Source of the DNA: Candidatus Omnitrophica bacterium CG22_combo_CG10-13_8_21_14_all_43_16
GTDB lineage: Bacteria; Omnitrophota; Gorgyraeia; Gorgyraeales; Gorgyraeaceae
Direction: 5' to 3'
Length of the DNA stretch: 48,006 nucleotides
Assembly: GCA_002771475.1 (NCBI GenBank)
Contig: PCTH01000051.1
Span: 1 to 48,006, forward strand
Numbering within the stretch: the stretch's first letter is position 1; each line of letters begins with the position of its first letter. Shown here piece by piece: positions 21,378 through 43,293 of the stretch. Both the position numbers and the translations under genes were made by a program. The notes beneath the pieces were generated by a model. The model saw only the letters and a list, made by a program, of their open reading frames with translations, made no database searches and was not told the DNA's origin.

Positions 21378-21436
21378 CAGGTCTTTCCTTATAATTTGCA
21401 ATACTTTCAAGGATAGGCAACACTAATAGGTATTTG

Positions 21437-21628
21437 CAGCCCTGCGCCGGCAGGCCTGAGGCACATCAGAAACGTTTCGGCATCAGTGGGTTTTACGTAT
21501 AAGCGCGCAAGGAATTACGGCGAGATTTTTATACTGTCAAGACTACCTTCAGTATAAAAAACGAGCCGTAAGCCGTAGCGCGCGGCGAAACCAGTTTCAG
21601 TGCCGAATGGCCTGTCTGCGCAGGGCTG
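21437..21628 (+). ncRNA. Copy 1 of an unassigned ~190-nt rod-like structured element (candidate ncRNA / structured repeat)
   Basis: 20-bp closing stem cagccctgcgccggcaggcc/ggcctgtctgcgcagggctg and nested helices shared with the copies at 41274 and 43069. Compensatory changes occur between copies (see findings). Confidence 0.6.
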
Positions 21629-21667
21629 ACTGTTACAATACTGTTACCTGCCTATTTAAATAATACA

Positions 21668-21696
21668 GTTGTCTATATTTTTCAGTTATGGTACAT
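21668..21696 (+). promoter_or_regulatory. Sigma70-like promoter for the UPF0016 gene
   Basis: TTGTCT, 17 nt, then TACATT. It lies between structured element copy 1 and the ATG at 21723. Confidence 0.4.
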
Positions 21697-21722
21697 TATC
21701 CTGAAAGCACAAAGGGGGAAAC

Positions 21723-26223: not shown

Positions 26224-26275
26224 CCTGGTCCACCTGACAGGTGAGCCATCTGGCTCACCTGTCAGGTGGACCAGG
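26224..26275. repeat. Perfect 25-bp inverted repeat (CCTGWCAGG-core palindrome family)
   Basis: cctggtccacctgacaggtgagcca, then tc, then tggctcacctgtcaggtggaccagg. It begins 3 nt after the radical SAM stop codon. Its sequence is related to the palindrome at 38533. Confidence 0.75.
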
Positions 26276-26289
26276 GTCGAGGAGCGTGT

Positions 26290-29399: not shown

Positions 29400-30131
29400 A
29401 TGGCCGATGATATATACCCAAGCAGGATGTCGATCATAGAGCATCTTGAGGAATTGCGTAAACGCATCATTGCGAGCCTTGTTTTTTTTACGCTGGCGTC
29501 TGTCTTTTCCTTTATGTTTGCGGATAAGATCTCTGATATCCTGAGATTGCCGGCCTTAGGCATAATAGAAAATTTTATATTTCTTGCCCCCACAGAGGTT
29601 TTCACTGCGTATCTGAGGATGTCGATTCTCGCCGGCTTTGTGATCTCCCTGCCGTTTATCCTGCTGCAGCTCGGGCTGTTTTTGATACCCGCTGTAGAGC
29701 GGGATCAAAAGGAAGCCATAGCAAGCTGGCTTGTGATTTCATTTTTACTTTCAGCGCTCGGCATAATGTTTTCTTATTTTCTAGCGCTCCCTTTCGCGCT
29801 TAAATTTCTTATCAGTTTTGCGGAAGGCGCGGCAGTCCCCATGATAAGCATAGGAAAATATTTTTCATTCGCGGGCGCGCTGCTTTTGATAGGAGCGGGT
29901 ATATTCCAGATACCGGTCATCATGGCGCTTTTATCTTATATTAGGATACTGAATCCGGCCTTTTTCAGGAAAAACCGCAAATACGCCGTAGTGGTTATCT
30001 TTATAATAGCTGCTATTATTACGCCTACGCAGGATATCGTGAACATGCTGATATTCGCGGTGCCTATGCTTGCGCTTTATGAGGCAGGCATACTTGCGTC
30101 ATGGATAATAGAAAGGAAGGGAAAGGCATGA
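29400..30131 (+). CDS. tatC: Twin-arginine translocase subunit TatC
   Basis: [15 protein letters not shown] is the canonical TatC N-terminus. 6 TM helices. I start it at the ATG at 29400. Confidence 0.85.
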
Positions 30132-37046: not shown

Positions 37047-38564
37047 ATGAAAATCATACCCATATTTATCCCGCACGCAGGCTGTCCGTACAGGTGCATT
37101 TACTGCGACCAGCATAAAATATCAGGCGCAGCAAAGATCCCTTCAGAAAAAGACATTAAATCCGTTATAGACAGAAATTTAAAAACTATTCCAAAACATG
37201 AAAGGGTGGAGCTTGCTTTTTTCGGCGGCACGTTTACGCTTTTGCCTGAAGCCCTCCAAAAAAAATACCTGGAAACAGTTTCCCCTTATGTAAAGAATAA
37301 AAAGATAGCCGGCATCCGCATGTCCACGCATCCCGAGGCTGTTACTGAAAAATCAATGAAGCTTTTTAAGAAAATGGGCGGATGCCTGGTGGAGCTCGGC
37401 GTGCAGTCGCTCGATGAAGAGGTTTTAAAGAAATGTAATAGGATGGTGGATTTTAATATCATCAAAACCGCCTGCCGCATTATAAAATCTTCAGGCCTTG
37501 ATCTGGGCGTGCAGGTAATGCTCGGACTTCCGGGCGACACGCTTTCGAAATCAATAGATACAGCTAAAAAACTTATTGAGCTTAGGCCAAAAACAGCTAG
37601 AATTTATCCTGCGATTGTTATAAGAGGCACAAAATTAGCCGGATTATTCAGGAAAGGGATATATAAACCGCTTTCAATGGAACAGGCAGTCCATTGGTCA
37701 GCAAATGTTTGCGATGTATTTGAAAAATCAGGCGTAAAAGTAATCCGCATAGGCCTTCATCCGTCAAAGGATTTGAATTCAAAAGGTGTTGTGCTCGCAG
37801 GGCCGTATCATCCGCGTTTCGGACAAATGGCGCGCTTGGCGCAAGCTTGGGGGAAACCTATTGCGGTTATTGACCCCGGGATGCCGGAAAAGGCAAAATT
37901 GAAATTAAAGCAGATGGGTTATTATGTTTTAGAAGTGCCTTTACATCCAAAATTAGCTCGACCTGTCAATGGCCATCCTGACATGATGATGTTTTTCTAC
38001 GGCAAAAAGGTCATTTACGAACCGAGCCTTGAAAAAATAGCAGGGCTTTTAAGAGATAATGGTTACGAATGCATTAAAGGCAAAGACATTAAATCTTTCG
38101 CCTATCCCGCGGATATTATTTATGATGCCTGTAGCCTTGGGAAAACCATAATTCGCTATAACGGTAAAATTGAAAAGCATATAGAAAATCTAAAAGCTAA
38201 ATTTATAAAAGTAAAGCAGGGATATGCGAAATGTTCTATTGTGCCTGTAGATGATAAAAGCATTATTACATCCGACAAATCTATAAAAGATATCTGGGGT
38301 AAATCCGCCTTGCTTGTAAAACCCGGGCATATAAAACTACCTGGCTACAAAACAGGTTTTATAGGCGGCGCATCAGGAGTTCATAAAGACAGGGTATTTT
38401 TTATAGGCTCTTTAAAAAATCATCCTGACGGTCTTGCGATAAGGGAGTTTATAAAAAATAGGGGAAAGAAAATAGTCGAATTATACAGCGGGCTTCTTTA
38501 CGACGCGGGCACCATTTTCTTTTTTGATACCTTGGTCAACCTGTCAGGTTACCCATCTGGGTAA
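37047..38564 (+). CDS. ELP3-like radical SAM domain fused to an uncharacterised ~215-aa C-terminal domain
   Basis: IPIFIPHAGCPYRCIYCDQ (CxxxCxxC) and ELGVQS. The C-terminal half carries GHPDMMMF, GYAKCS and GFIGGASG motifs of unknown family. Confidence 0.65.
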   Translation: MKIIPIFIPHAGCPYRCIYCDQHKISGAAKIPSEKDIKSVIDRNLKTIPKHERVELAFFGGTFTLLPEALQKKYLETVSPYVKNKKIAGIRMSTHPEAVTEKSMKLFKKMGGCLVELGVQSLDEEVLKKCNRMVDFNIIKTACRIIKSSGLDLGVQVMLGLPGDTLSKSIDTAKKLIELRPKTARIYPAIVIRGTKLAGLFRKGIYKPLSMEQAVHWSANVCDVFEKSGVKVIRIGLHPSKDLNSKGVVLAGPYHPRFGQMARLAQAWGKPIAVIDPGMPEKAKLKLKQMGYYVLEVPLHPKLARPVNGHPDMMMFFYGKKVIYEPSLEKIAGLLRDNGYECIKGKDIKSFAYPADIIYDACSLGKTIIRYNGKIEKHIENLKAKFIKVKQGYAKCSIVPVDDKSIITSDKSIKDIWGKSALLVKPGHIKLPGYKTGFIGGASGVHKDRVFFIGSLKNHPDGLAIREFIKNRGKKIVELYSGLLYDAGTIFFFDTLVNLSGYPSG

Positions 38565-38580
38565 CCTGACAGGTTGACCA
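38533..38580. terminator. Perfect 23-bp inverted repeat between convergent genes (CCTGWCAGG-core palindrome family); likely bidirectional terminator
   Basis: tggtcaacctgtcaggttaccca, then tc, then tgggtaacctgacaggttgacca. It contains the stop codon of the upstream gene (38562-38564) and abuts the stop of the minus-strand gene (38581). Confidence 0.7.
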
Positions 38581-39708
38581 TTAGCACATCACGATCTTTG
38601 CGGGTTTAAAGCCGTTGAAGTTCGGGACAGCGCTTGCGCATGAGTAAGCGCCTATGTTTTTCACATAGACCACATTACCCACATCCATCTCTGGAAGGTC
38701 TTCGCTCAGGGAAATAGTATCAAATGAATCGCACGTGGGTCCTGCCAGGGTGCTCAGGAACCTTTGCCCGCGGTTTAAAGTCCTGAATTCATATTTACAG
38801 TGGTCAAACACTATGCCGGAAAAATCCCCGTATAGCCCGTCGTTGAGATAATAATAATTTTTATTATTCCTGAAAGCCCTACCTATTACCTGCGTCACGA
38901 GTATTCCGGCTGGGCCTGCGAAAAATCTTCCGGGCTCAGCGATGAACTTCACGTTTTTATCAAAAAGCCTCTGTAATTTTTTCCTTATTGGGCTTGCCAT
39001 GCGCTCAAATGTCAGGTGGCTGTCAGCGTCAAAATGTTTTATAGGGAACCCTCCGCCTATATCCAGTATATTCAGGAATATCCCTGACTGCTTCGCTTCG
39101 CTGAAGATCACGCTGGACACCTCAAGCGCCTGTAAATAATTTTCAGCGTTGGTGCATTGCGATCCCACGTGGAAACTCACGCCCACTGGTTTTAGCCCCA
39201 GCGCCCGCGCTTTTTTGAGCAGCGATATCGACTGCTCCGGGTCCGCCCCGAATTTCAAAGAGAGCTCCACGATGCTTCCGATATTCGCCACCTTGATCCT
39301 TATGATGACTTTTGCTCCGGGGCATGCCTTTGCTATCTTGTATAATTCCGGCTCGTTGTCAAATGTCATGAGCTTTACTTTTTTCTTGCAGGCGGATCGC
39401 ATGTCTTCGTGGGACTTTATAGTGTTGGCGAAAATTATTTTGTCTGGACTTGCGCCGAGCCCCAGGACGGCATTCATCTCATTGGCGCTCGCCACATCAA
39501 AGCCTGTCCCTAATTCAATAAACTTTTTGATGATCCCTGGATACGGATTTGCCTTTATCGCGTAGTAAGGCATGACTTCGGGCAGCGCCTTGCGGAAGGC
39601 CTTGTATTGCTTCTCAAGCGCGTCCTCCTGTATGAGCATAAGAGGGGAAGAGTGCTTCTTGAGCATTTTACGTATCAAATTTTCTATGCCGCCGGATTTA
39701 TTTTTCAT
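38581..39708 (-). CDS. PLP-dependent Orn/Lys/Arg decarboxylase, alanine-racemase fold (ornithine decarboxylase-like)
   Basis: YAIKANP (PLP lysine), DIGGGFP and GPTCDSFD. I start it at MKNKSGG (39708), which gives an ATGA overlap with the upstream hss stop. Confidence 0.8.
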   Translation of the reverse strand: MKNKSGGIENLIRKMLKKHSSPLMLIQEDALEKQYKAFRKALPEVMPYYAIKANPYPGIIKKFIELGTGFDVASANEMNAVLGLGASPDKIIFANTIKSHEDMRSACKKKVKLMTFDNEPELYKIAKACPGAKVIIRIKVANIGSIVELSLKFGADPEQSISLLKKARALGLKPVGVSFHVGSQCTNAENYLQALEVSSVIFSEAKQSGIFLNILDIGGGFPIKHFDADSHLTFERMASPIRKKLQRLFDKNVKFIAEPGRFFAGPAGILVTQVIGRAFRNNKNYYYLNDGLYGDFSGIVFDHCKYEFRTLNRGQRFLSTLAGPTCDSFDTISLSEDLPEMDVGNVVYVKNIGAYSCASAVPNFNGFKPAKIVMC

Positions 39709-41159
39709 GACTGCGTTATTAAAAATGTCGTGAACTGCCACTGGTCCTTTGCTTTCGGTTTTTTAAGGCCGAGCGTCCGGAAAGTCTTATTGTAGTTCTT
39801 AAGAGGCGTCCAGTCAACTGGTATTGAAATAAAAGGCCCGAGGTACGGCCTTGAGATTTTCATTATGTCTTCGTGCGGCAGATCATCCGGAAGATTAAAT
39901 CCTTTATTCGGGTTCTCTATCATCCACCTGGCGGCAGCCACTACTGATATTGCGACCTGCAGGGTCGTGGCATTCTGGTTAGGGACGAGTTTTCTCGCCT
40001 CTTCGATATCCAAAAGGCTTCCCGTCCACCATGAATTAAAATCATGGCCCATGAGCAGTACGCCCAGCCTGTCCTCGCCTTTAGTGATCTCATTATTCAT
40101 TATCCTCTGATTTTCCTGGAGATTATACCGCCTCATCTCGAGTTCGTGCAGAGAAATTATCGCGGCGTCCGCGGGGCAATACGCGTAATGAACCGTGGGC
40201 CTGTAGATAGCCTTGCTTTTTTTATCCCATACGGTCAGCCTGTCAGATATCCCGAACGCCTCACCGTGGCGGATAACCATTCCCACTATCTCGCAGTCAG
40301 GCACCCACGATCTTACCCAGGTATTCACGCCCATGCTCTCCAGGCAGATCTGGTTTTTAGGCCCGGACTTATGGAAATACGCGCCTTCAGGGATATTTTT
40401 CTCATGAGTCCCCCAGCCCATCTCAGCTGGGGCGATCCCCTCTTCAAAAAACCCCTCGATGCTCCACGTATTTACAAATTCATCCACCTCTTTGGGCTTA
40501 TCAGAGATCTGCGTATCGCGCTCGCTTATGTGTATGACCTTGACGCCGGATGTTTTCGCGAGCGCGGGATAATTTTTATTATCCAGCGCCTCTTTCAATA
40601 TCTTTACGCGCTTATCCTTAGGTTTATCGGAAATAATTTTTTTTGCGATATCTTCCAGCGCGACTTTTGTAAAATGGGACACGAGCCCGGGATTTGCCCC
40701 GTGATCCACCACTGCCGTGGGGCCGTTATTGTCGCCCCATTTTTTTATTAGATTGCGTATCTCCATCTGCCTGACATAGAGAGTCAGGTTTCTAGGGTCT
40801 CTGACATCCATTGAATACGGGTCCCAGACCTCGACGGATGTATTTACGTACAGCACTTTGTTGTCCCTCGCCCACTGAAGTATTTCTATGCAGTCTATAT
40901 TCCACGCCAGGTCGATTATCAGGTCACCTGCGCCTGCGTATTTTTTTAAAAGAACAGGATAGTTTTTGCGGGTGACCCGTTCGATCACGTAATTTACGCC
41001 TTTATCCAGGCTGTCCTTTACGCGGTGACGGTTATCCGTAAAATCCATTATGGTAATATTTTTTGGCGGGGCGTCTATAATTTTTAATACGAGCGGTATC
41101 GCGCACTGCGAAACAGAACCGCATCCGATGACTAATATTTTTCCTGCGAACTTCATCAT
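39705..41159 (-). CDS. hss: Homospermidine synthase (bacterial Hss, saccharopine dehydrogenase-related), paralogue 1
   Basis: ILVIGCGSV Rossmann motif, DHGANPGLVSHF, HISERDTQ, VNTWSIEGF.EEG..PAEMGWGTHE, YRPTVHYAY and QNATTLQV. About 480 aa. A GGGAGG RBS precedes the ATG ATG. Confidence 0.8.
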   Translation of the reverse strand: MMKFAGKILVIGCGSVSQCAIPLVLKIIDAPPKNITIMDFTDNRHRVKDSLDKGVNYVIERVTRKNYPVLLKKYAGAGDLIIDLAWNIDCIEILQWARDNKVLYVNTSVEVWDPYSMDVRDPRNLTLYVRQMEIRNLIKKWGDNNGPTAVVDHGANPGLVSHFTKVALEDIAKKIISDKPKDKRVKILKEALDNKNYPALAKTSGVKVIHISERDTQISDKPKEVDEFVNTWSIEGFFEEGIAPAEMGWGTHEKNIPEGAYFHKSGPKNQICLESMGVNTWVRSWVPDCEIVGMVIRHGEAFGISDRLTVWDKKSKAIYRPTVHYAYCPADAAIISLHELEMRRYNLQENQRIMNNEITKGEDRLGVLLMGHDFNSWWTGSLLDIEEARKLVPNQNATTLQVAISVVAAARWMIENPNKGFNLPDDLPHEDIMKISRPYLGPFISIPVDWTPLKNYNKTFRTLGLKKPKAKDQWQFTTFLITQS

Positions 41160-41273
41160 ACCTCCCGGCAAGTTAATTTTTTATTAGGTTCATTCTATCA
41201 AAAATATTTTTTTAATCAAATAAAATTTTGCTGTGATGTTTTTAATATTAGATAACACTAACGAATACTTGAT

Positions 41274-41460
41274 AGCCCTGTCAGGCAAGTCTGAGGCACA
41301 TTAGAAAAATTTTGCCAAATGTCCGCAAGGGATTACAGCGAGCAAATGGCGGAACTGACCCTCGTCTATAATATATGAAGAATTCCGCCAAATTTGCGAG
41401 CTGTAAACCGTAGCGTACGGCAAAATTATTTCAGTGCCGAACGGCCTGCCTGACAGGGCT
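41274..41460 (+). ncRNA. Copy 2 of the ~190-nt structured element
   Basis: It shares the closing stem agccctgtcaggcaagtc/ggcctgcctgacagggct and all conserved loops. The apical hairpin and several helices are changed in a compensatory way. Confidence 0.6.
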
Positions 41461-41519
41461 GGAAACTATGCAATGTGTTGCCCTAGCATCCAAATAGTAC
41501 AAATAAAATTTTTACCGCG

Positions 41520-41548
41520 TTGACATAAATACTTAATTGTTGTAAACT
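41520..41548 (+). promoter_or_regulatory. Near-consensus sigma70 promoter for hss paralogue 2
   Basis: TTGACA (41520-41525), a 17-nt spacer, then TAAACT (41543-41548). Confidence 0.55.
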
Positions 41549-41562
41549 GTAAAAAGAAAATC

Positions 41563-43020
41563 ATGATAAAGTTCAAAAATAAAATCCTCATTATAGGCCA
41601 CGGCGCGGTAGGCAGATGCGCCTTGCCGCTTCTCGTAAAACACATCAGCGTCCCATATAAAAATATCACTGTAATAGATTTTGCCGACAAGCGCCGGGAA
41701 CTGGACCCCTGGATAAAAAAGGGCGTGAAATATTTCCAGGAAAAGATCACGCCCGTTAATATTGCCCGGACCCTTTCCAGGCACGTGTCTCCCGGCGGGA
41801 TTATCATGGACCTTGCCTGGAACATAGAATGTCTGAGCATGCTTAACTGGTGCCATGAAAATAAAGTATTGTATGTAAACACCTCCGTGGAAGAGTGGGA
41901 CCCGTTCGCCAATATCGAAAAGAAAACGCCTTACGAAAAATCCCTTTACTATAAACAGATGGAGATCTGGAAACTGATTTCCATGTGGAGCACTGACCAG
42001 AAGGCCGCGACAGCTGTGCTGGATCACGGCGCCAATCCCGGCCTCATCTCGCATTTTACCAAAAAAGGCATTATTAATATCGCAGAGAAGGTTTTAAAAG
42101 ACAGGGCTGTCCCGAAAAAGCACGAAAAGATCCTCGAACGTTTTATAAAAGAGGAAAAATTCCCTGAGCTGAGCATGAAGCTCGGCATAAAGGTAATACA
42201 CATAAGCGAACGCGACACCCAGGTAACGAACAAACCGAAACAGCTGGACGAATTCGTGGGTACCTGGAGCATAGAAGGCTTGAGAGAAGAGGGGATTGCC
42301 CCTAGCGAGATAGGATGGGGCACGCACGAGAAAGAACTGCCTGATCTGGCCAATGTCCCTGAAGTCGGCCCCAGAAACCAGATATTTCTTTCGCGCATGG
42401 GAATGAATACGTGGGTGCGCACCTGGGTTCCTTACGGCGAAACAGTCGGCATGGTTATAAGGCACGCGGAGGCCTTTACTATTTCAGACAGGCTCACTAT
42501 ATGGAGGAAAGGGAGGGCCGTTTACAGGCCTACGGTTCATTACGCTTATATGCCCTGTAACGAAACTATATCTTCTCTTTACGAGCTCAGGTGCAGGAAT
42601 TACGAATTGCAGCCCAGGATACGCATCATGAACGACGAGATCGTCAGCGGTTCCGATACCCTCGGCGCGCTTATAATGGGCCACAGGTATAATTCCTGGT
42701 GGACAGGCAGCATGCTGAGCATAGAAGAATCCAGAAAATTGGTAAAACATCAGAACGCTACTACCCTGCAGGTGGCAATAGGAGCCGTCTCAGGCGCTAT
42801 GTGGGCGATAGAAAACCCCGACCAGGGCGTATTAGAGCCTGACGAATTGCCCCACGAATACATACTAAAGATAGCCAAGCCGTATCTCGGAAAATTAATA
42901 TCAGAACCTTCAGACTGGGCCCCTTTCACAAACTACCAGGTATTCTTCAAGGAAAACCCGGACGCCTACCTCGACAACAAAGCCCCCTGGGCATTCAAAA
43001 ACTTCCTCTTCAAACCCTAA
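41563..43020 (+). CDS. hss: Homospermidine synthase, paralogue 2
   Basis: It has the same motif set as paralogue 1 (ILIIGHGAVG, DHGANPGLISHF, HISERDTQ, GTWSIEGLREEG..PSEIGWGTHE, YRPTVHYAY, QNATTLQV). By eye, roughly half the residues are identical to paralogue 1. Confidence 0.8.
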   Translation: MIKFKNKILIIGHGAVGRCALPLLVKHISVPYKNITVIDFADKRRELDPWIKKGVKYFQEKITPVNIARTLSRHVSPGGIIMDLAWNIECLSMLNWCHENKVLYVNTSVEEWDPFANIEKKTPYEKSLYYKQMEIWKLISMWSTDQKAATAVLDHGANPGLISHFTKKGIINIAEKVLKDRAVPKKHEKILERFIKEEKFPELSMKLGIKVIHISERDTQVTNKPKQLDEFVGTWSIEGLREEGIAPSEIGWGTHEKELPDLANVPEVGPRNQIFLSRMGMNTWVRTWVPYGETVGMVIRHAEAFTISDRLTIWRKGRAVYRPTVHYAYMPCNETISSLYELRCRNYELQPRIRIMNDEIVSGSDTLGALIMGHRYNSWWTGSMLSIEESRKLVKHQNATTLQVAIGAVSGAMWAIENPDQGVLEPDELPHEYILKIAKPYLGKLISEPSDWAPFTNYQVFFKENPDAYLDNKAPWAFKNFLFKP

Positions 43021-43027
43021 GCAGATT
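43006..43027 (+). repeat. Left copy of a direct repeat flanking structured element copy 3
   Basis: ctcttcaaaccctaagcagatt covers the last 4 codons and stop of hss2 plus 7 nt. It is repeated at 43263-43293 with a 9-nt insertion. Confidence 0.8.
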
Positions 43028-43068
43028 TGTAATACTTTCTATGCTAGGTTGCAGTAATTGTTTTAGCC

Positions 43069-43254
43069 AGCCCTGTCAGGCAGGCCTGAGGCACATCAGA
43101 AACGTTTCGGCATCATAGATATCTTATATGTAAGCGCGCAAGGGATTACGGCGAAGTTTTTATACTGTCAAGACTACCTTCAGTATAAAAAATGAGCCGT
43201 AAACCGTAGCGCGCGGCGAAACCAGTTTCAGTGCCGAATGGTCTGCCTGACAGG
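43069..43254 (+). ncRNA. Copy 3 of the ~190-nt structured element
   Basis: It is close to copy 1 in the core, but the closing stem is of the copy-2 type (cctgtcaggcaggcc/ggtctgcctgacagg). The first pair after the apical tandem G.A motif is changed in a compensatory way. Confidence 0.6.
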
Positions 43255-43262
43255 ACACTCTA

Positions 43263-43293
43263 CTCTTCAAATATTATAAACCCTAAGCAGATT
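43263..43293 (+). repeat. Right copy of the direct repeat flanking structured element copy 3
   Basis: ctcttcaaa [tattataaa] ccctaagcagatt. The two blocks (9 + 13 nt) are identical to 43006-43027. Confidence 0.8.

What the first reader, a model, noticed from the sequence alone, without database searches (positions are those of the whole stretch)
21437..21628. Three-copy ~190-nt rod-like structured element with extensive compensatory base changes (candidate new ncRNA or structured repeat family)
Three plus-strand copies (21437-21628, 41274-41460, 43069-43254) fold into the same long irregular hairpin.

Architecture from the outside in:
- P1 is 18-20 bp (e.g. agccctgtcaggca../..tgcctgacagggct).
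- A conserved loop UGA / GAAY follows.
- P2 is GGCAC/GUGCC.
- P3 is GAAAC+GUUUCGGC / GGCGAAAC+(CA)+GUUUC.
- The 5'-side insertion varies in length (4, 21 or 22 nt).
- P4 is GCGCGC/GCGCGC.
- A conserved 7x7 loop AAGGRAU / ARCCGUA follows.
- P5 is UACRGC/GCYGUA.
- A tandem G.A/A.G motif comes next.
- The apical hairpin has unrelated sequence in copy 2 versus copies 1 and 3, but is still a hairpin of 11-13 bp.

Double substitutions that keep pairing:
- P1 has three consecutive pairs (cgc/gcg in copy 1 versus tca/tga in copies 2 and 3).
- P3 has two (g-c to a-u and c-g to u-a).
- P4 has one (c-g to u-a).
- P5 has one (g-c to a-u).
- The first pair after the apical G.A motif has one (g-c in copy 1, a-u in copy 3).

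The G-U wobbles in P1 are only tolerable on the plus strand, which argues for an RNA read in the plus orientation. Unpaired loop sequences are conserved better than helices. That is the signature of a functional RNA rather than a decaying repeat. I cannot match it to 6S, SRP, tmRNA, RNase P or any riboswitch consensus I know.
Basis: seen in the sequence. Interest (0 to 1): 0.85.

Follow-up and report, generated by a model that had tools for sequence, protein, structure and literature searches.

The report
Mobile palindromic repeat with structured core
The three 190-base hairpins are real and conserved, but each sits inside a small jumping-DNA element (a MITE) found in many copies across Omnitrophota genomes, so it is a new family of a familiar kind of repeat and not shown to be an RNA gene.

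Summary
Three plus-strand copies fold into the same long irregular hairpin (z about -10). About 100 further copies exist in Candidatus Omnitrophota MAGs and metagenomes. Across 42 distinct copies, 97% of helix cells pair and 13 of 32 pairs show compensatory changes. Internal loops are nearly invariant.

The hairpin is not a stand-alone gene. In the window each copy lies inside a 250-271 bp unit with imperfect terminal inverted repeats (TGYAATACTTTC... / ...CAAATAKTACA). Copies 2 and 3 are flanked by 13 and 15 bp target duplications. Syntenic relatives (87-91% identical neighbouring protein) lack the element at both sites. At the copy 2 site they carry one copy of the target.

TGT...ACA ends with 13-18 bp duplications match the ISTde1 subgroup of IS1202 insertion sequences. 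No transposase partner was found.

The evidence does not support a plus-strand RNA gene:
- no Rfam match;
- no promoter or terminator;
- orientation random relative to genes (29:32) and to the element's own ends;
- G.U about equal to A.C (22 vs 25);
- many copies among housekeeping genes.

Verdict: a new, undescribed MITE/ERIC-like structured repeat family. Why the core fold is maintained remains unexplained.

The parts
21397..21667 (+). Element copy 1, inverted-repeat end to inverted-repeat end (271 bp). No target-site duplication detectable.
   Evidence: TGCAATACTTTC at 21397 and the reverse complement of TGTATTATTTAAAT ending at 21667. No flanking repeat of 4-30 nt. Gene order breaks at this point in relatives.
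21397..21436 (+). Left arm of copy 1 (alpha-type terminal inverted repeat)
   Evidence: Aligns with the left arms of copy 3 and L014 and with the reverse complement of the L011 right arm.
21437..21628 (+).
   Evidence: MFE -100.1 kcal/mol, z -10.75. nhmmer 173 bits. Covariance model 44 bits.
21629..21667 (+). Right arm of copy 1 (beta-type terminal inverted repeat, ends ...AATAATACA)
41217..41229 (.). Left copy of the target-site duplication of copy 2 (CAAATAAAATTTT)
   Evidence: Perfect 13-nt direct repeat. Five related genomes have this sequence once, with no element.
41230..41499 (+). Element copy 2 (270 bp). The left end is degenerate (alpha terminus partly deleted); the right beta end is intact.
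   Evidence: The inserted block is defined exactly by comparison with the empty sites in L103, L104, L105, L106, L107 and L108.
41274..41460 (+). Core hairpin of copy 2, apex type B, short (4 nt) 5' insert
   Evidence: MFE -89.9 kcal/mol, z -9.6. Covariance model 58 bits.
41500..41512 (.). Right copy of the target-site duplication of copy 2
43013..43027 (.). Left copy of the 15-bp target-site duplication of copy 3 (AACCCTAAGCAGATT). It contains the stop codon of the homospermidine synthase gene.
   Evidence: 15 nt with 0 mismatches, measured from the element ends.
43028..43278 (+). Element copy 3 (251 bp), from TGTAATACTTTC... to ...TCAAATATTATA
   Evidence: The site lacks the element in relatives L104, L105, L106 and L108.
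43069..43254 (+). Core hairpin of copy 3, apex type A
   Evidence: MFE -90.7 kcal/mol, z -11.0. Covariance model 49 bits.
43279..43293 (.). Right copy of the 15-bp target-site duplication of copy 3

Best explanation
The three copies are insertions of a non-autonomous transposable element (a MITE) of 250-271 bp that belongs to a large repeat family specific to Candidatus Omnitrophota.

Structure of the unit:
- Imperfect terminal inverted repeats of about 24-40 bp that start TGT and end ACA.
In many genomes this core is nested in a further GC-rich outer palindrome.

Shown here:
- The inverted-repeat ends.
- Target-site duplications of 13-18 bp.
- Sites without the element in close relatives.
- Many dispersed intergenic copies.
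- Persistence at orthologous sites.
- Intrastrand pairing of the core kept through compensatory changes, with nearly invariant purine-rich loops.

Inferred:
- The unit is moved in trans by a DDE transposase of the IS1202 family, ISTde1 subgroup, which is the group described with TGT ends and 15-17 bp duplications.
- The interior flips relative to its flanks by recombination between the arms of its perfect stems. This would explain why its orientation is random.
- Any RNA effect comes from passive co-transcription within operons as a long hairpin, in the manner of ERIC, REP or Correia elements, and not from a dedicated RNA gene.
For: Family and distribution:
- 16 copies in 6 Omnitrophota MAGs.
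- 81 metagenome stretches from a second scan. Some are chance hits.
- About 100 copies in 724 kb of held DNA, up to 3 per 14 kb.
- Most copies overlap no long ORF (78 of 89; the other 11 overlaps look like spurious ORF calls).

Ends and duplications:
- Alpha and beta ends both start TGT and are mutually inverted.
- Duplications measured from the ends: 15 bp with 0 mismatches (window copy 3), 15 with 1 (L011), 14 with 1 (L014), 16 with 2 (L056), about 17 (L029), 18 with 0 (L016) and 13 (window copy 2).

Empty sites:
- Syntenic relatives whose homospermidine synthase is 87-91% identical carry a single AATCAAATAAAATTTTTACC and no element at the copy 2 site.
- At the copy 3 site they have an overlapping junction, a 37-nt spacer, or a different small palindrome.

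Literature:
- ISTde1 subgroup of IS1202: 5'-TGT ends and 15-17 bp direct repeats (bioRxiv 10.1101/2022.12.17.520857).
- TGT...ACA ends as in Tn7 (PMC10132070).

Against a dedicated RNA gene:
- Orientation 29 same to 32 opposite relative to co-directional neighbours.
- Both core orientations relative to the alpha/beta ends are common, by my reading of the listings.
- G.U 22 against A.C 25 in P2-P5. In the 42-copy alignment about 41 cells are unpaired against 15 changed on one side, 14 of them G.U wobbles.
- No promoter or terminator at the elements.
- No Rfam match.
- Neighbouring genes are 199 different, mostly housekeeping, Pfam families with no mobile-element or RNA-partner gene enriched.

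Fold is real:
- 97.0% of cells paired against 90.8% in shuffles.
- 13 of 32 pairs with compensatory changes against 7.1 in shuffles.
- Both exceeded in 0 of 500 shuffles. Slid controls give 31-41% paired.
Against: - No autonomous partner with the same ends was found. tblastn with the ISAba32 transposase found nothing in the held loci.
- By my reading, about half of the core copies have no recognisable alpha/beta arms, so the core is not tied to this MITE shell.
- A DDE transposase acting on double-stranded DNA gives no reason for a maintained hairpin or for invariant asymmetric loops.
- Orthologous copies show compensatory changes in situ (L006 vs L098).
- The core evolves about as slowly as flanking coding DNA. 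This points to selection or to gene conversion among copies.
- The strand with purine-rich loops folds 6.5 kcal/mol better on average as RNA, in 68 of 74 copies. This hints that one strand matters. These copies are not independent events.
- Duplication lengths of 13-18 bp are somewhat wider than the published 15-17 bp.
- Copy 1 has no duplication.
- The right end of copy 3 is TATA, not TACA.
Confidence: 0.75

Rival explanations
1. The core hairpin is a functional structured RNA gene family read on the plus strand, for example a protein-binding RNA. The MITE shell only spreads it.
For: - Strong covariation and near-invariant loops.
- Tandem G.A and UGA/GAA loops are purine-rich on one strand, and that strand folds better in 68 of 74 copies.
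- Copies persist at orthologous sites with compensatory changes and evolve at about the rate of coding DNA.
- The conserved motifs survive in a divergent subfamily with a completely different P1 (L045, L046, L082).
Against: - No promoter or terminator.
- Orientation random relative to genes and to the element's ends.
- Many copies among unrelated housekeeping genes.
- G.U not favoured over A.C.
- Mismatches outnumber wobbles.
- No Rfam relative.
- Part of the loop conservation was imposed by my own search patterns.
Confidence: 0.12
2. The core (with or without the outer palindrome) is itself the mobile unit. It would be a REPIN-like single-stranded DNA hairpin moved by an HUH/Y1 transposase (RAYT or IS200/IS605-type) that recognises the fold and the conserved loops. 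The TGT...ACA element is only one of several places into which it has inserted.
For: - The core occurs in at least four contexts: alone, inside the outer palindrome, inside the TIR shell, and two cores within one shell.
- Orthologous sites can carry different apex types or orientations (L004 vs L009; L028, L030 and L087).
- Further palindromes are nested in its apex (L079, L083).
- A hairpin maintained by compensatory change is what is reported for REPINs (PMC3116915).
- An 8-nt repeat CYCGCTCG flanks the core inside the outer palindrome (read from the sequences).
Against: - By eye I saw no consistent duplication or end motif around arm-less copies.
- No Y1/RAYT-like gene was enriched next to copies.
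- The outer palindrome was never seen without a core.
- No G.T over A.C excess on one strand, as use of a single strand would predict.
Confidence: 0.15
3. The element is a MITE, but it is mobilised by another enzyme class that makes long duplications. Candidates, recalled from my own knowledge, are a casposon-type Cas1 integrase (14-15 bp), an IS481-family transposase (4-15 bp) or an IS1634-type transposase (long and variable).
For: Duplications of 13-18 bp overlap the ranges recalled for these groups. TGT ends are also typical of IS3 and IS481.
Against: The combination of TGT...ACA ends with a mode of 15-17 bp is the published signature of the ISTde1 subgroup. No Cas1 or other transposase was seen near copies.
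Confidence: 0.1
4. It is a cis-acting RNA element of the adjacent genes: a riboswitch or leader (for example for the GDT1 cation transporter downstream of copy 1), or a transcription terminator.
For: In the window all three copies point the same way as the downstream gene.
Against: - Family-wide orientation is 29:32 and the neighbours are unrelated.
- No match to yybP-ykoY or any other Rfam family.
- No U-tract terminator.
- Close relatives lack the element at the copy 2 and copy 3 sites.
Confidence: 0.02

Closest known systems
ERIC / IRU elements of enterobacteria
   Same: (ERIC properties are recalled from my own knowledge: Hulton 1991; Wilson and Sharp 2006.)
- Imperfect palindromes of more than 100 nt in intergenic, mostly operon-internal positions.
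- Found in either orientation.
- Present at orthologous sites across species.
- Size variants made by internal insertions and deletions at fixed points.
- Hairpin kept by compensatory changes.
The REPIN paper notes that ERICs are thought to be MITEs (PMC3116915).
   Different: - No sequence similarity: blastn against 5,426 E. coli genomes found nothing.
- Different phylum.
- Here there are clear TGT...ACA ends with 13-18 bp duplications.
- The core is longer (about 190 nt), with discrete interchangeable apex modules and an optional outer palindrome.
IS1202 family, ISTde1 subgroup (insertion sequences)
   Same: 5'-TGT...ACA-3' termini, imperfect inverted repeats of about 24 bp, and unusually long direct target repeats of 15-17 bp.
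   Different: - Those are 1.3-2 kb elements that encode an HTH-DDE transposase. Here there is no ORF, only about 250-400 bp.
- No transposase partner was found.
- The two papers read mention neither MITE derivatives nor Omnitrophota.
- ISAba32 ends share only TGT with these ends.
REP / REPIN elements with RAYT transposases
   Same: Abundant intergenic hairpin-forming repeats. Conserved blocks are separated by stems maintained through compensatory changes. They are thought to fold in single-stranded DNA or mRNA (PMC3116915).
   Different: - REPINs are about 70-110 nt, symmetric doublets of a short REP, without terminal TGT...ACA repeats.
- From my own knowledge they lack target duplications and are linked to a RAYT gene.
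- Here the loops are asymmetric and no RAYT was seen.
Correia (NEMIS) elements of Neisseria and other bacterial MITEs
   Same: Non-coding, 100-400 bp, with inverted-repeat ends and target duplication. They are dispersed between genes and co-transcribed as long hairpins that RNase III can cut (own knowledge; MITE review PMC10969869 listed, not read).
   Different: Correia elements duplicate TA and carry promoter and IHF sites. Here the duplication is 13-18 bp and no promoter-like site was detected.

Membership tests
Bacterial MITE | Short non-coding unit with terminal inverted repeats | tested here: met
   250-271 bp in the window and up to 522 bp elsewhere, without an ORF. Alpha and beta ends are TGYAATACTTTC.GATG..TAGGTAA and TGTAYTATTTGRATG..TAGGTAA.
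Bacterial MITE | Flanking target-site duplication | tested here: met
   13, 14, 15, 15, 16, about 17 and 18 bp at seven independent insertions. Window copy 1 has none.
Bacterial MITE | Insertion polymorphism (filled versus empty sites) | tested here: met
   The copy 2 site has a single target copy in L103-L108. The copy 3 site lacks the element in L104-L106 and L108.
Bacterial MITE | An autonomous element with the same ends that encodes the transposase | not tested
   None in the 724 kb of held loci.
IS1202 family, ISTde1 subgroup (derived MITE) | Termini 5'-TGT ... ACA-3' | tested here: met
   All measured ends except the right end of copy 3 (TATA) and the degenerate left end of copy 2. Family definition.
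IS1202 family, ISTde1 subgroup (derived MITE) | Direct repeats of 15-17 bp | tested here: met
   Mode is 15. The range of 13-18 is slightly wider than published.
IS1202 family, ISTde1 subgroup (derived MITE) | Second conserved block around position 20 of both inverted repeats | tested here: inconclusive
   TAGGTAA at positions 17-24 is shared by the alpha and beta ends. The published logos could not be compared because figures are not held.
IS1202 family, ISTde1 subgroup (derived MITE) | HTH + DDE transposase with the subgroup-specific indel | not testable with these tools
   No ISTde1 sequence or Omnitrophota partner was available. The ISAba32 transposase gave no hit in the held loci.
Structured ncRNA gene (Rfam-type family) | Match to a described family | tested here: not met
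   No hit at the gathering threshold in the window, none at E up to 10 on copy 1, and none on the long-form or divergent loci.
Structured ncRNA gene (Rfam-type family) | Secondary structure supported by covariation | tested here: met
   97.0% of cells paired, 13 of 32 pairs with double changes, covariation score 0.213 against 0.100, all exceeded in 0 of 500 shuffles. The control does not remove the effect of shared ancestry.
Structured ncRNA gene (Rfam-type family) | Strand-specific signature (G.U tolerated, A.C avoided) | tested here: inconclusive
   22 G.U against 25 A.C in P2-P5, 20 against 13 in P1, and 27 against 9 at one position. However, the plus strand folds better in 68 of 74 copies because of its purine-rich loops.
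Structured ncRNA gene (Rfam-type family) | Own transcription signals or a consistent orientation | tested here: not met
   No sigma-70-like promoter or intrinsic terminator at the elements. Orientation is 29:32. Omnitrophota promoter types are not known to me.
Structured ncRNA gene (Rfam-type family) | A discrete transcript | not testable with these tools
   No transcriptome data were available.
REPIN / RAYT system | Symmetric doublet of a short REP, associated with a RAYT gene and without target duplication | tested here: not met
   The loops are asymmetric, duplications are present, and no associated gene family is enriched among 150 neighbouring proteins.
ERIC | Sequence similarity to the enterobacterial consensus | tested here: not met
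   No blastn match in any complete E. coli genome.

The most novel reading that the evidence does not exclude
The 190-nt core is a functional folded nucleic acid in its own right. It could be an RNA, or a single-stranded DNA form, whose purine-rich loops (UGA/GAAY, AAGGRAU/ARCCGUA, tandem G.A) are recognised by a conserved Omnitrophota protein. On this reading selection keeps it at orthologous sites, and a MITE shell disseminates and shuffles it. It would then be a transposon-spread structured RNA module with interchangeable apex domains, not passive junk.
Probability: 0.2. Interest if true: 0.7.

Novelty: new member of a known kind. Interest (0 to 1): 0.4.

Why it matters
- It would add a MITE/ERIC-like repeat family to an uncultured phylum, Omnitrophota. 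My literature searches found none described there.
- It would be an example of a miniature derivative with the long (about 15 bp) duplication signature of the ISTde1 group of IS1202. The two IS1202 papers read here mention no such derivatives.
- It is a caution for ncRNA discovery. Strong covariation and conserved loops can come from a mobile palindrome.
- If the core fold proves to be under selection as RNA, the roughly 100 diverse copies collected here would form a ready comparative dataset.

Tried and rejected
Searches that found nothing:
- Rfam at the gathering and E-value thresholds on the window, copy 1, a long-form locus, a divergent locus and a nested locus.
- Viral-contig scan.
- blastn of the whole unit against E. 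coli genomes, phages and plasmids.
- Literature searches for Omnitrophica/Omnitrophota with ncRNA or MITE.
- tblastn with the ISAba32 transposase on 724 kb of held loci.

Candidate copies rejected:
- A fourth copy at 29548-29584 (62% identity, inside a coding region) and a covariance-model hit at 29653-29740 (15 bits). Both are chance matches.
- Four genome hits (L005, L012, L013, L018) and six metagenome hits (L031, L032, L033, L039, L040, L097). All are chance pattern matches without a hairpin.

Readings considered and rejected:
- Mn riboswitch upstream of GDT1: no yybP-ykoY hit, and the family is mobile with unrelated neighbours.
- Integron attC cassette (copies 2 and 3 flank one gene): no integrase, and the TIR plus duplication structure does not fit.
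- Retron msr/msd, IS110 bridge RNA, TnpB/IscB omega RNA and 6S RNA: no adjacent RT or recombinase among 150 neighbouring proteins, many copies, and no large central bubble.
- Promoter in the left arm: spacing of 19-20 nt, and the scan found none.
- The outer GC-rich palindrome as an independent element: never seen without a core, and mostly in a fixed orientation relative to it.

Method note:
- MAFFT plus RNAalifold on untrimmed copies misaligned the short-insert type and lost P4 and P5. It was replaced by an anchor-trimmed alignment.

Full report
**1. Observation**

Each folds as RNA into one long irregular hairpin. MFE is -100.1, -89.9 and -90.7 kcal/mol, z is about -10, and none of 200 dinucleotide shuffles folds as well. 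The helices, loops, variable 5' insert and the unrelated apex of copy 2 are as described.

nhmmer and a covariance model run without filters find only these three copies in the window. A weak fourth match at 29548 lies in a coding region and is chance. Rfam 15 has no match at the gathering threshold, and none at E up to 10 on copy 1.

**2. The family**

A gapped pattern from the two outer loops found 16 copies in six Candidatus Omnitrophota MAGs, plus four chance hits in other phyla. A second pattern from the 3' half found 81 metagenome stretches. Six of these are chance hits.

nhmmer then located about 100 copies in 724 kb of fetched DNA, with up to three per 14 kb. Most copies overlap no long ORF: 78 of 89, and the other 11 overlaps look like spurious ORF calls.

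The core is modular:
- There are four discrete apex types. Types A, B and C recur in several MAGs; type D was seen once.
- P1 differs widely between copies but stays complementary.
- Many copies are nested in a further GC-rich palindrome. That outer palindrome was never seen without a core and is mostly in a fixed orientation relative to it.
- A divergent subfamily has an unrelated P1 yet keeps GGCACAUUAGAA, CAAGGAUUUAC, GUAAACCGUAG and CAGUGCCGAA. The last two motifs were imposed by my search pattern.

**3. The fold is maintained**

I used an anchor-trimmed alignment of 42 distinct copies, with the variable insert and apex removed:

| Measure | Observed | Shuffled | Shuffles reaching observed |
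|---|---|---|---|
| Cells forming a standard pair | 97.0% | 90.8% | 0 of 500 |
| Pairs with changes on both sides (of 32) | 13 | 7.1 | 0 of 500 |
| Covariation score | 0.213 | 0.100 | 0 of 500 |

Sliding the 3' partners by 1-3 columns drops pairing to 31-41%. My own counts on 72 copies agree. Loop columns are 90-100% conserved.

**4. The hairpin sits inside a transposon-like unit**

Copy 3 is flanked by a perfect repeat, AACCCTAAGCAGATT, and copy 2 by CAAATAAAATTTT. Between these repeats and the hairpin lie arms of about 40 nt. Across loci the arms define two related ends that are inverted relative to each other:
- alpha: TGYAATACTTTC.GATG..TAGGTAA
- beta: TGTAYTATTTGRATG..TAGGTAA

Duplications measured from TGT and ACA:

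| Insertion | Length (bp) | Mismatches |
|---|---|---|
| Window copy 3 | 15 | 0 |
| L011 | 15 | 1 |
| L014 | 14 | 1 |
| L056 | 16 | 2 |
| L029 | about 17 | one indel |
| L016 | 18 | 0 |
| Window copy 2 | 13 | 0 (left end degenerate) |

Copy 1 has both ends but no duplication.

**5. Sites without the element**

I searched for homologues of the homospermidine synthase gene that lies between copies 2 and 3 and fetched their contigs.

- Five syntenic relatives (87-91% protein identity; six loci, L103-L108) have the same gene order.
- At the copy 2 site they carry a single ...TTTTTTTAATCAAATAAAATTTTTACC... and no element. This defines the 270-bp insertion and its duplication exactly.
- At the copy 3 site the two genes overlap (L105, L106), are 37 nt apart (L104), or are separated by a different 65-nt palindrome (L108). 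The window has a 315-nt spacer. This shows absence of the element but is not a base-for-base empty site.
- L109 is the same genome as the window.
- Downstream of the histidine kinase (copy 1), relatives at 87-97% identity have no element and a different gene order. This fits a rearrangement at copy 1 and its missing duplication, but that link is my inference.

**6. Which enzyme**

TGT...ACA ends combined with direct repeats of about 15-17 bp are the published signature of the ISTde1 subgroup of the IS1202 family:
- 5'-TGT at both ends and direct repeats of 15-17 bp, in bacteria from many phyla (bioRxiv 10.1101/2022.12.17.520857).
- TGT/ACA ends as in Tn7 and a TnsB-like transposase (PMC10132070).

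Neither paper mentions miniature derivatives or Omnitrophota. I could not find the partner. This step is therefore inferred.

**7. Tests of the RNA-gene reading**

- Orientation relative to co-directional flanking genes is 29 same and 32 opposite.
- Relative to the alpha/beta ends, both core orientations are common. One locus holds two cores head-to-head within one pair of ends.
- No sigma-70-like promoter or intrinsic terminator lies at the elements. The promoter-like sites found are those of the host genes, beyond the duplications.
- Among 150 neighbouring proteins, 199 Pfam families appear. None occurs in more than four members, and the listed top families are all housekeeping.
- Wobble pairs are not favoured. 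There are 22 G.U against 25 A.C in P2-P5 and 20 against 13 in P1. One loop-adjacent position has 27 against 9.
- In the 42-copy alignment, unpaired cells (about 41) outnumber cells changed on one side (15, of which 14 are G.U wobbles).
- Compensatory changes are reported as common in REPIN DNA hairpins too (PMC3116915).

**8. What remains unexplained**

A DDE transposase does not need a 190-nt hairpin, yet several results point to constraint on the core:
- The pairing and the asymmetric purine-rich loops are conserved.
- Orthologous copies differ by compensatory changes (L006 vs L098).
- The core diverges about as slowly as the flanking, mostly coding, DNA: 81-93% against 74-92% identity.
- Orthologous sites can hold different apex types (L004 vs L009). 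This suggests gene conversion among copies.
- The loop-purine strand folds 6.5 kcal/mol better in 68 of 74 copies. These are not independent events.
- By my reading, about half of the copies lack recognisable arms.

These points keep two minority readings alive: a functional RNA or single-stranded DNA module, and a REPIN-like independently mobile hairpin.

**9. Verdict**

This is a real, previously undescribed structured repeat family of Omnitrophota. In this window it is carried by a MITE with IS1202/ISTde1-type ends and duplications.

It works like ERIC, REP or Correia elements, but it is not a member of any of them by sequence. It is a new member of a known kind and of moderate interest. 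The ncRNA interpretation is not supported by any test I could run, but it is not excluded.

Noticed in passing
window 26225-26276 and 38532-38581: A second, unrelated family of about 50-nt perfect palindromes lies directly after gene ends. The copies are CCTGGTCCACCTGACAGGTGAGCCATCTGGCTCACCTGTCAGGTGGACCAGG and TTGGTCAACCTGTCAGGTTACCCATCTGGGTAACCTGACAGGTTGACCA. The arms differ between the two copies but stay complementary. Each arm contains the sub-palindrome CACCTGNCAGGTG.
   Followed up: no
L108:1613-1680: At the exact place of window copy 3, a relative with a 91% identical homospermidine synthase carries a different small palindrome, AAGTTTACACTTTTGACAATGTCAAAAGTGTAAACTT. The gene junction looks like an insertion hot spot.
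   Followed up: no
L045:6795-6928, L046:1328-1457, L082:1454-1586, L062:24-163: A divergent subfamily has P1 GTTTCGCT/AGCGAAAC and a GGA/GAA loop, with no TIR arms and no outer palindrome. In L045, L046 and L082 it lies 16-22 nt after a stop codon and antisense to that gene (leuS, an amidohydrolase-like ORF, shikimate kinase).
   Followed up: partly
L079:3738-4018, L083:750-1025, L061:973-1182, L021:557-771: Extra palindromic inserts are nested inside the type B apex or in the 5' bulge of the core, giving copies of up to about 280 nt.
   Followed up: no
L056:9089-9610: Two cores lie in head-to-head orientation within a single pair of TGT...ACA ends, flanked by a 16-bp duplication with 2 mismatches.
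   Followed up: partly
window 21378-21722 versus L110, L111, L113, L114: Gene order breaks immediately downstream of the histidine kinase gene in all close relatives. This is exactly where copy 1, the copy without a target duplication, sits. It could reflect recombination between element copies.
   Followed up: partly
window 38581-43020: A polyamine gene cluster holds two divergently transcribed homospermidine synthase/saccharopine dehydrogenase paralogues next to an Orn/DAP/Arg decarboxylase-family gene. The arrangement is conserved in relatives.
   Followed up: no
L028:3662-3830, L030:7112-7267, L087:1619-1801: Three genomes have a core at the same intergenic site upstream of a gene that starts MFEKLDSLLKRY. 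The P1 sequences differ, and in L087 the orientation is opposite.
   Followed up: partly
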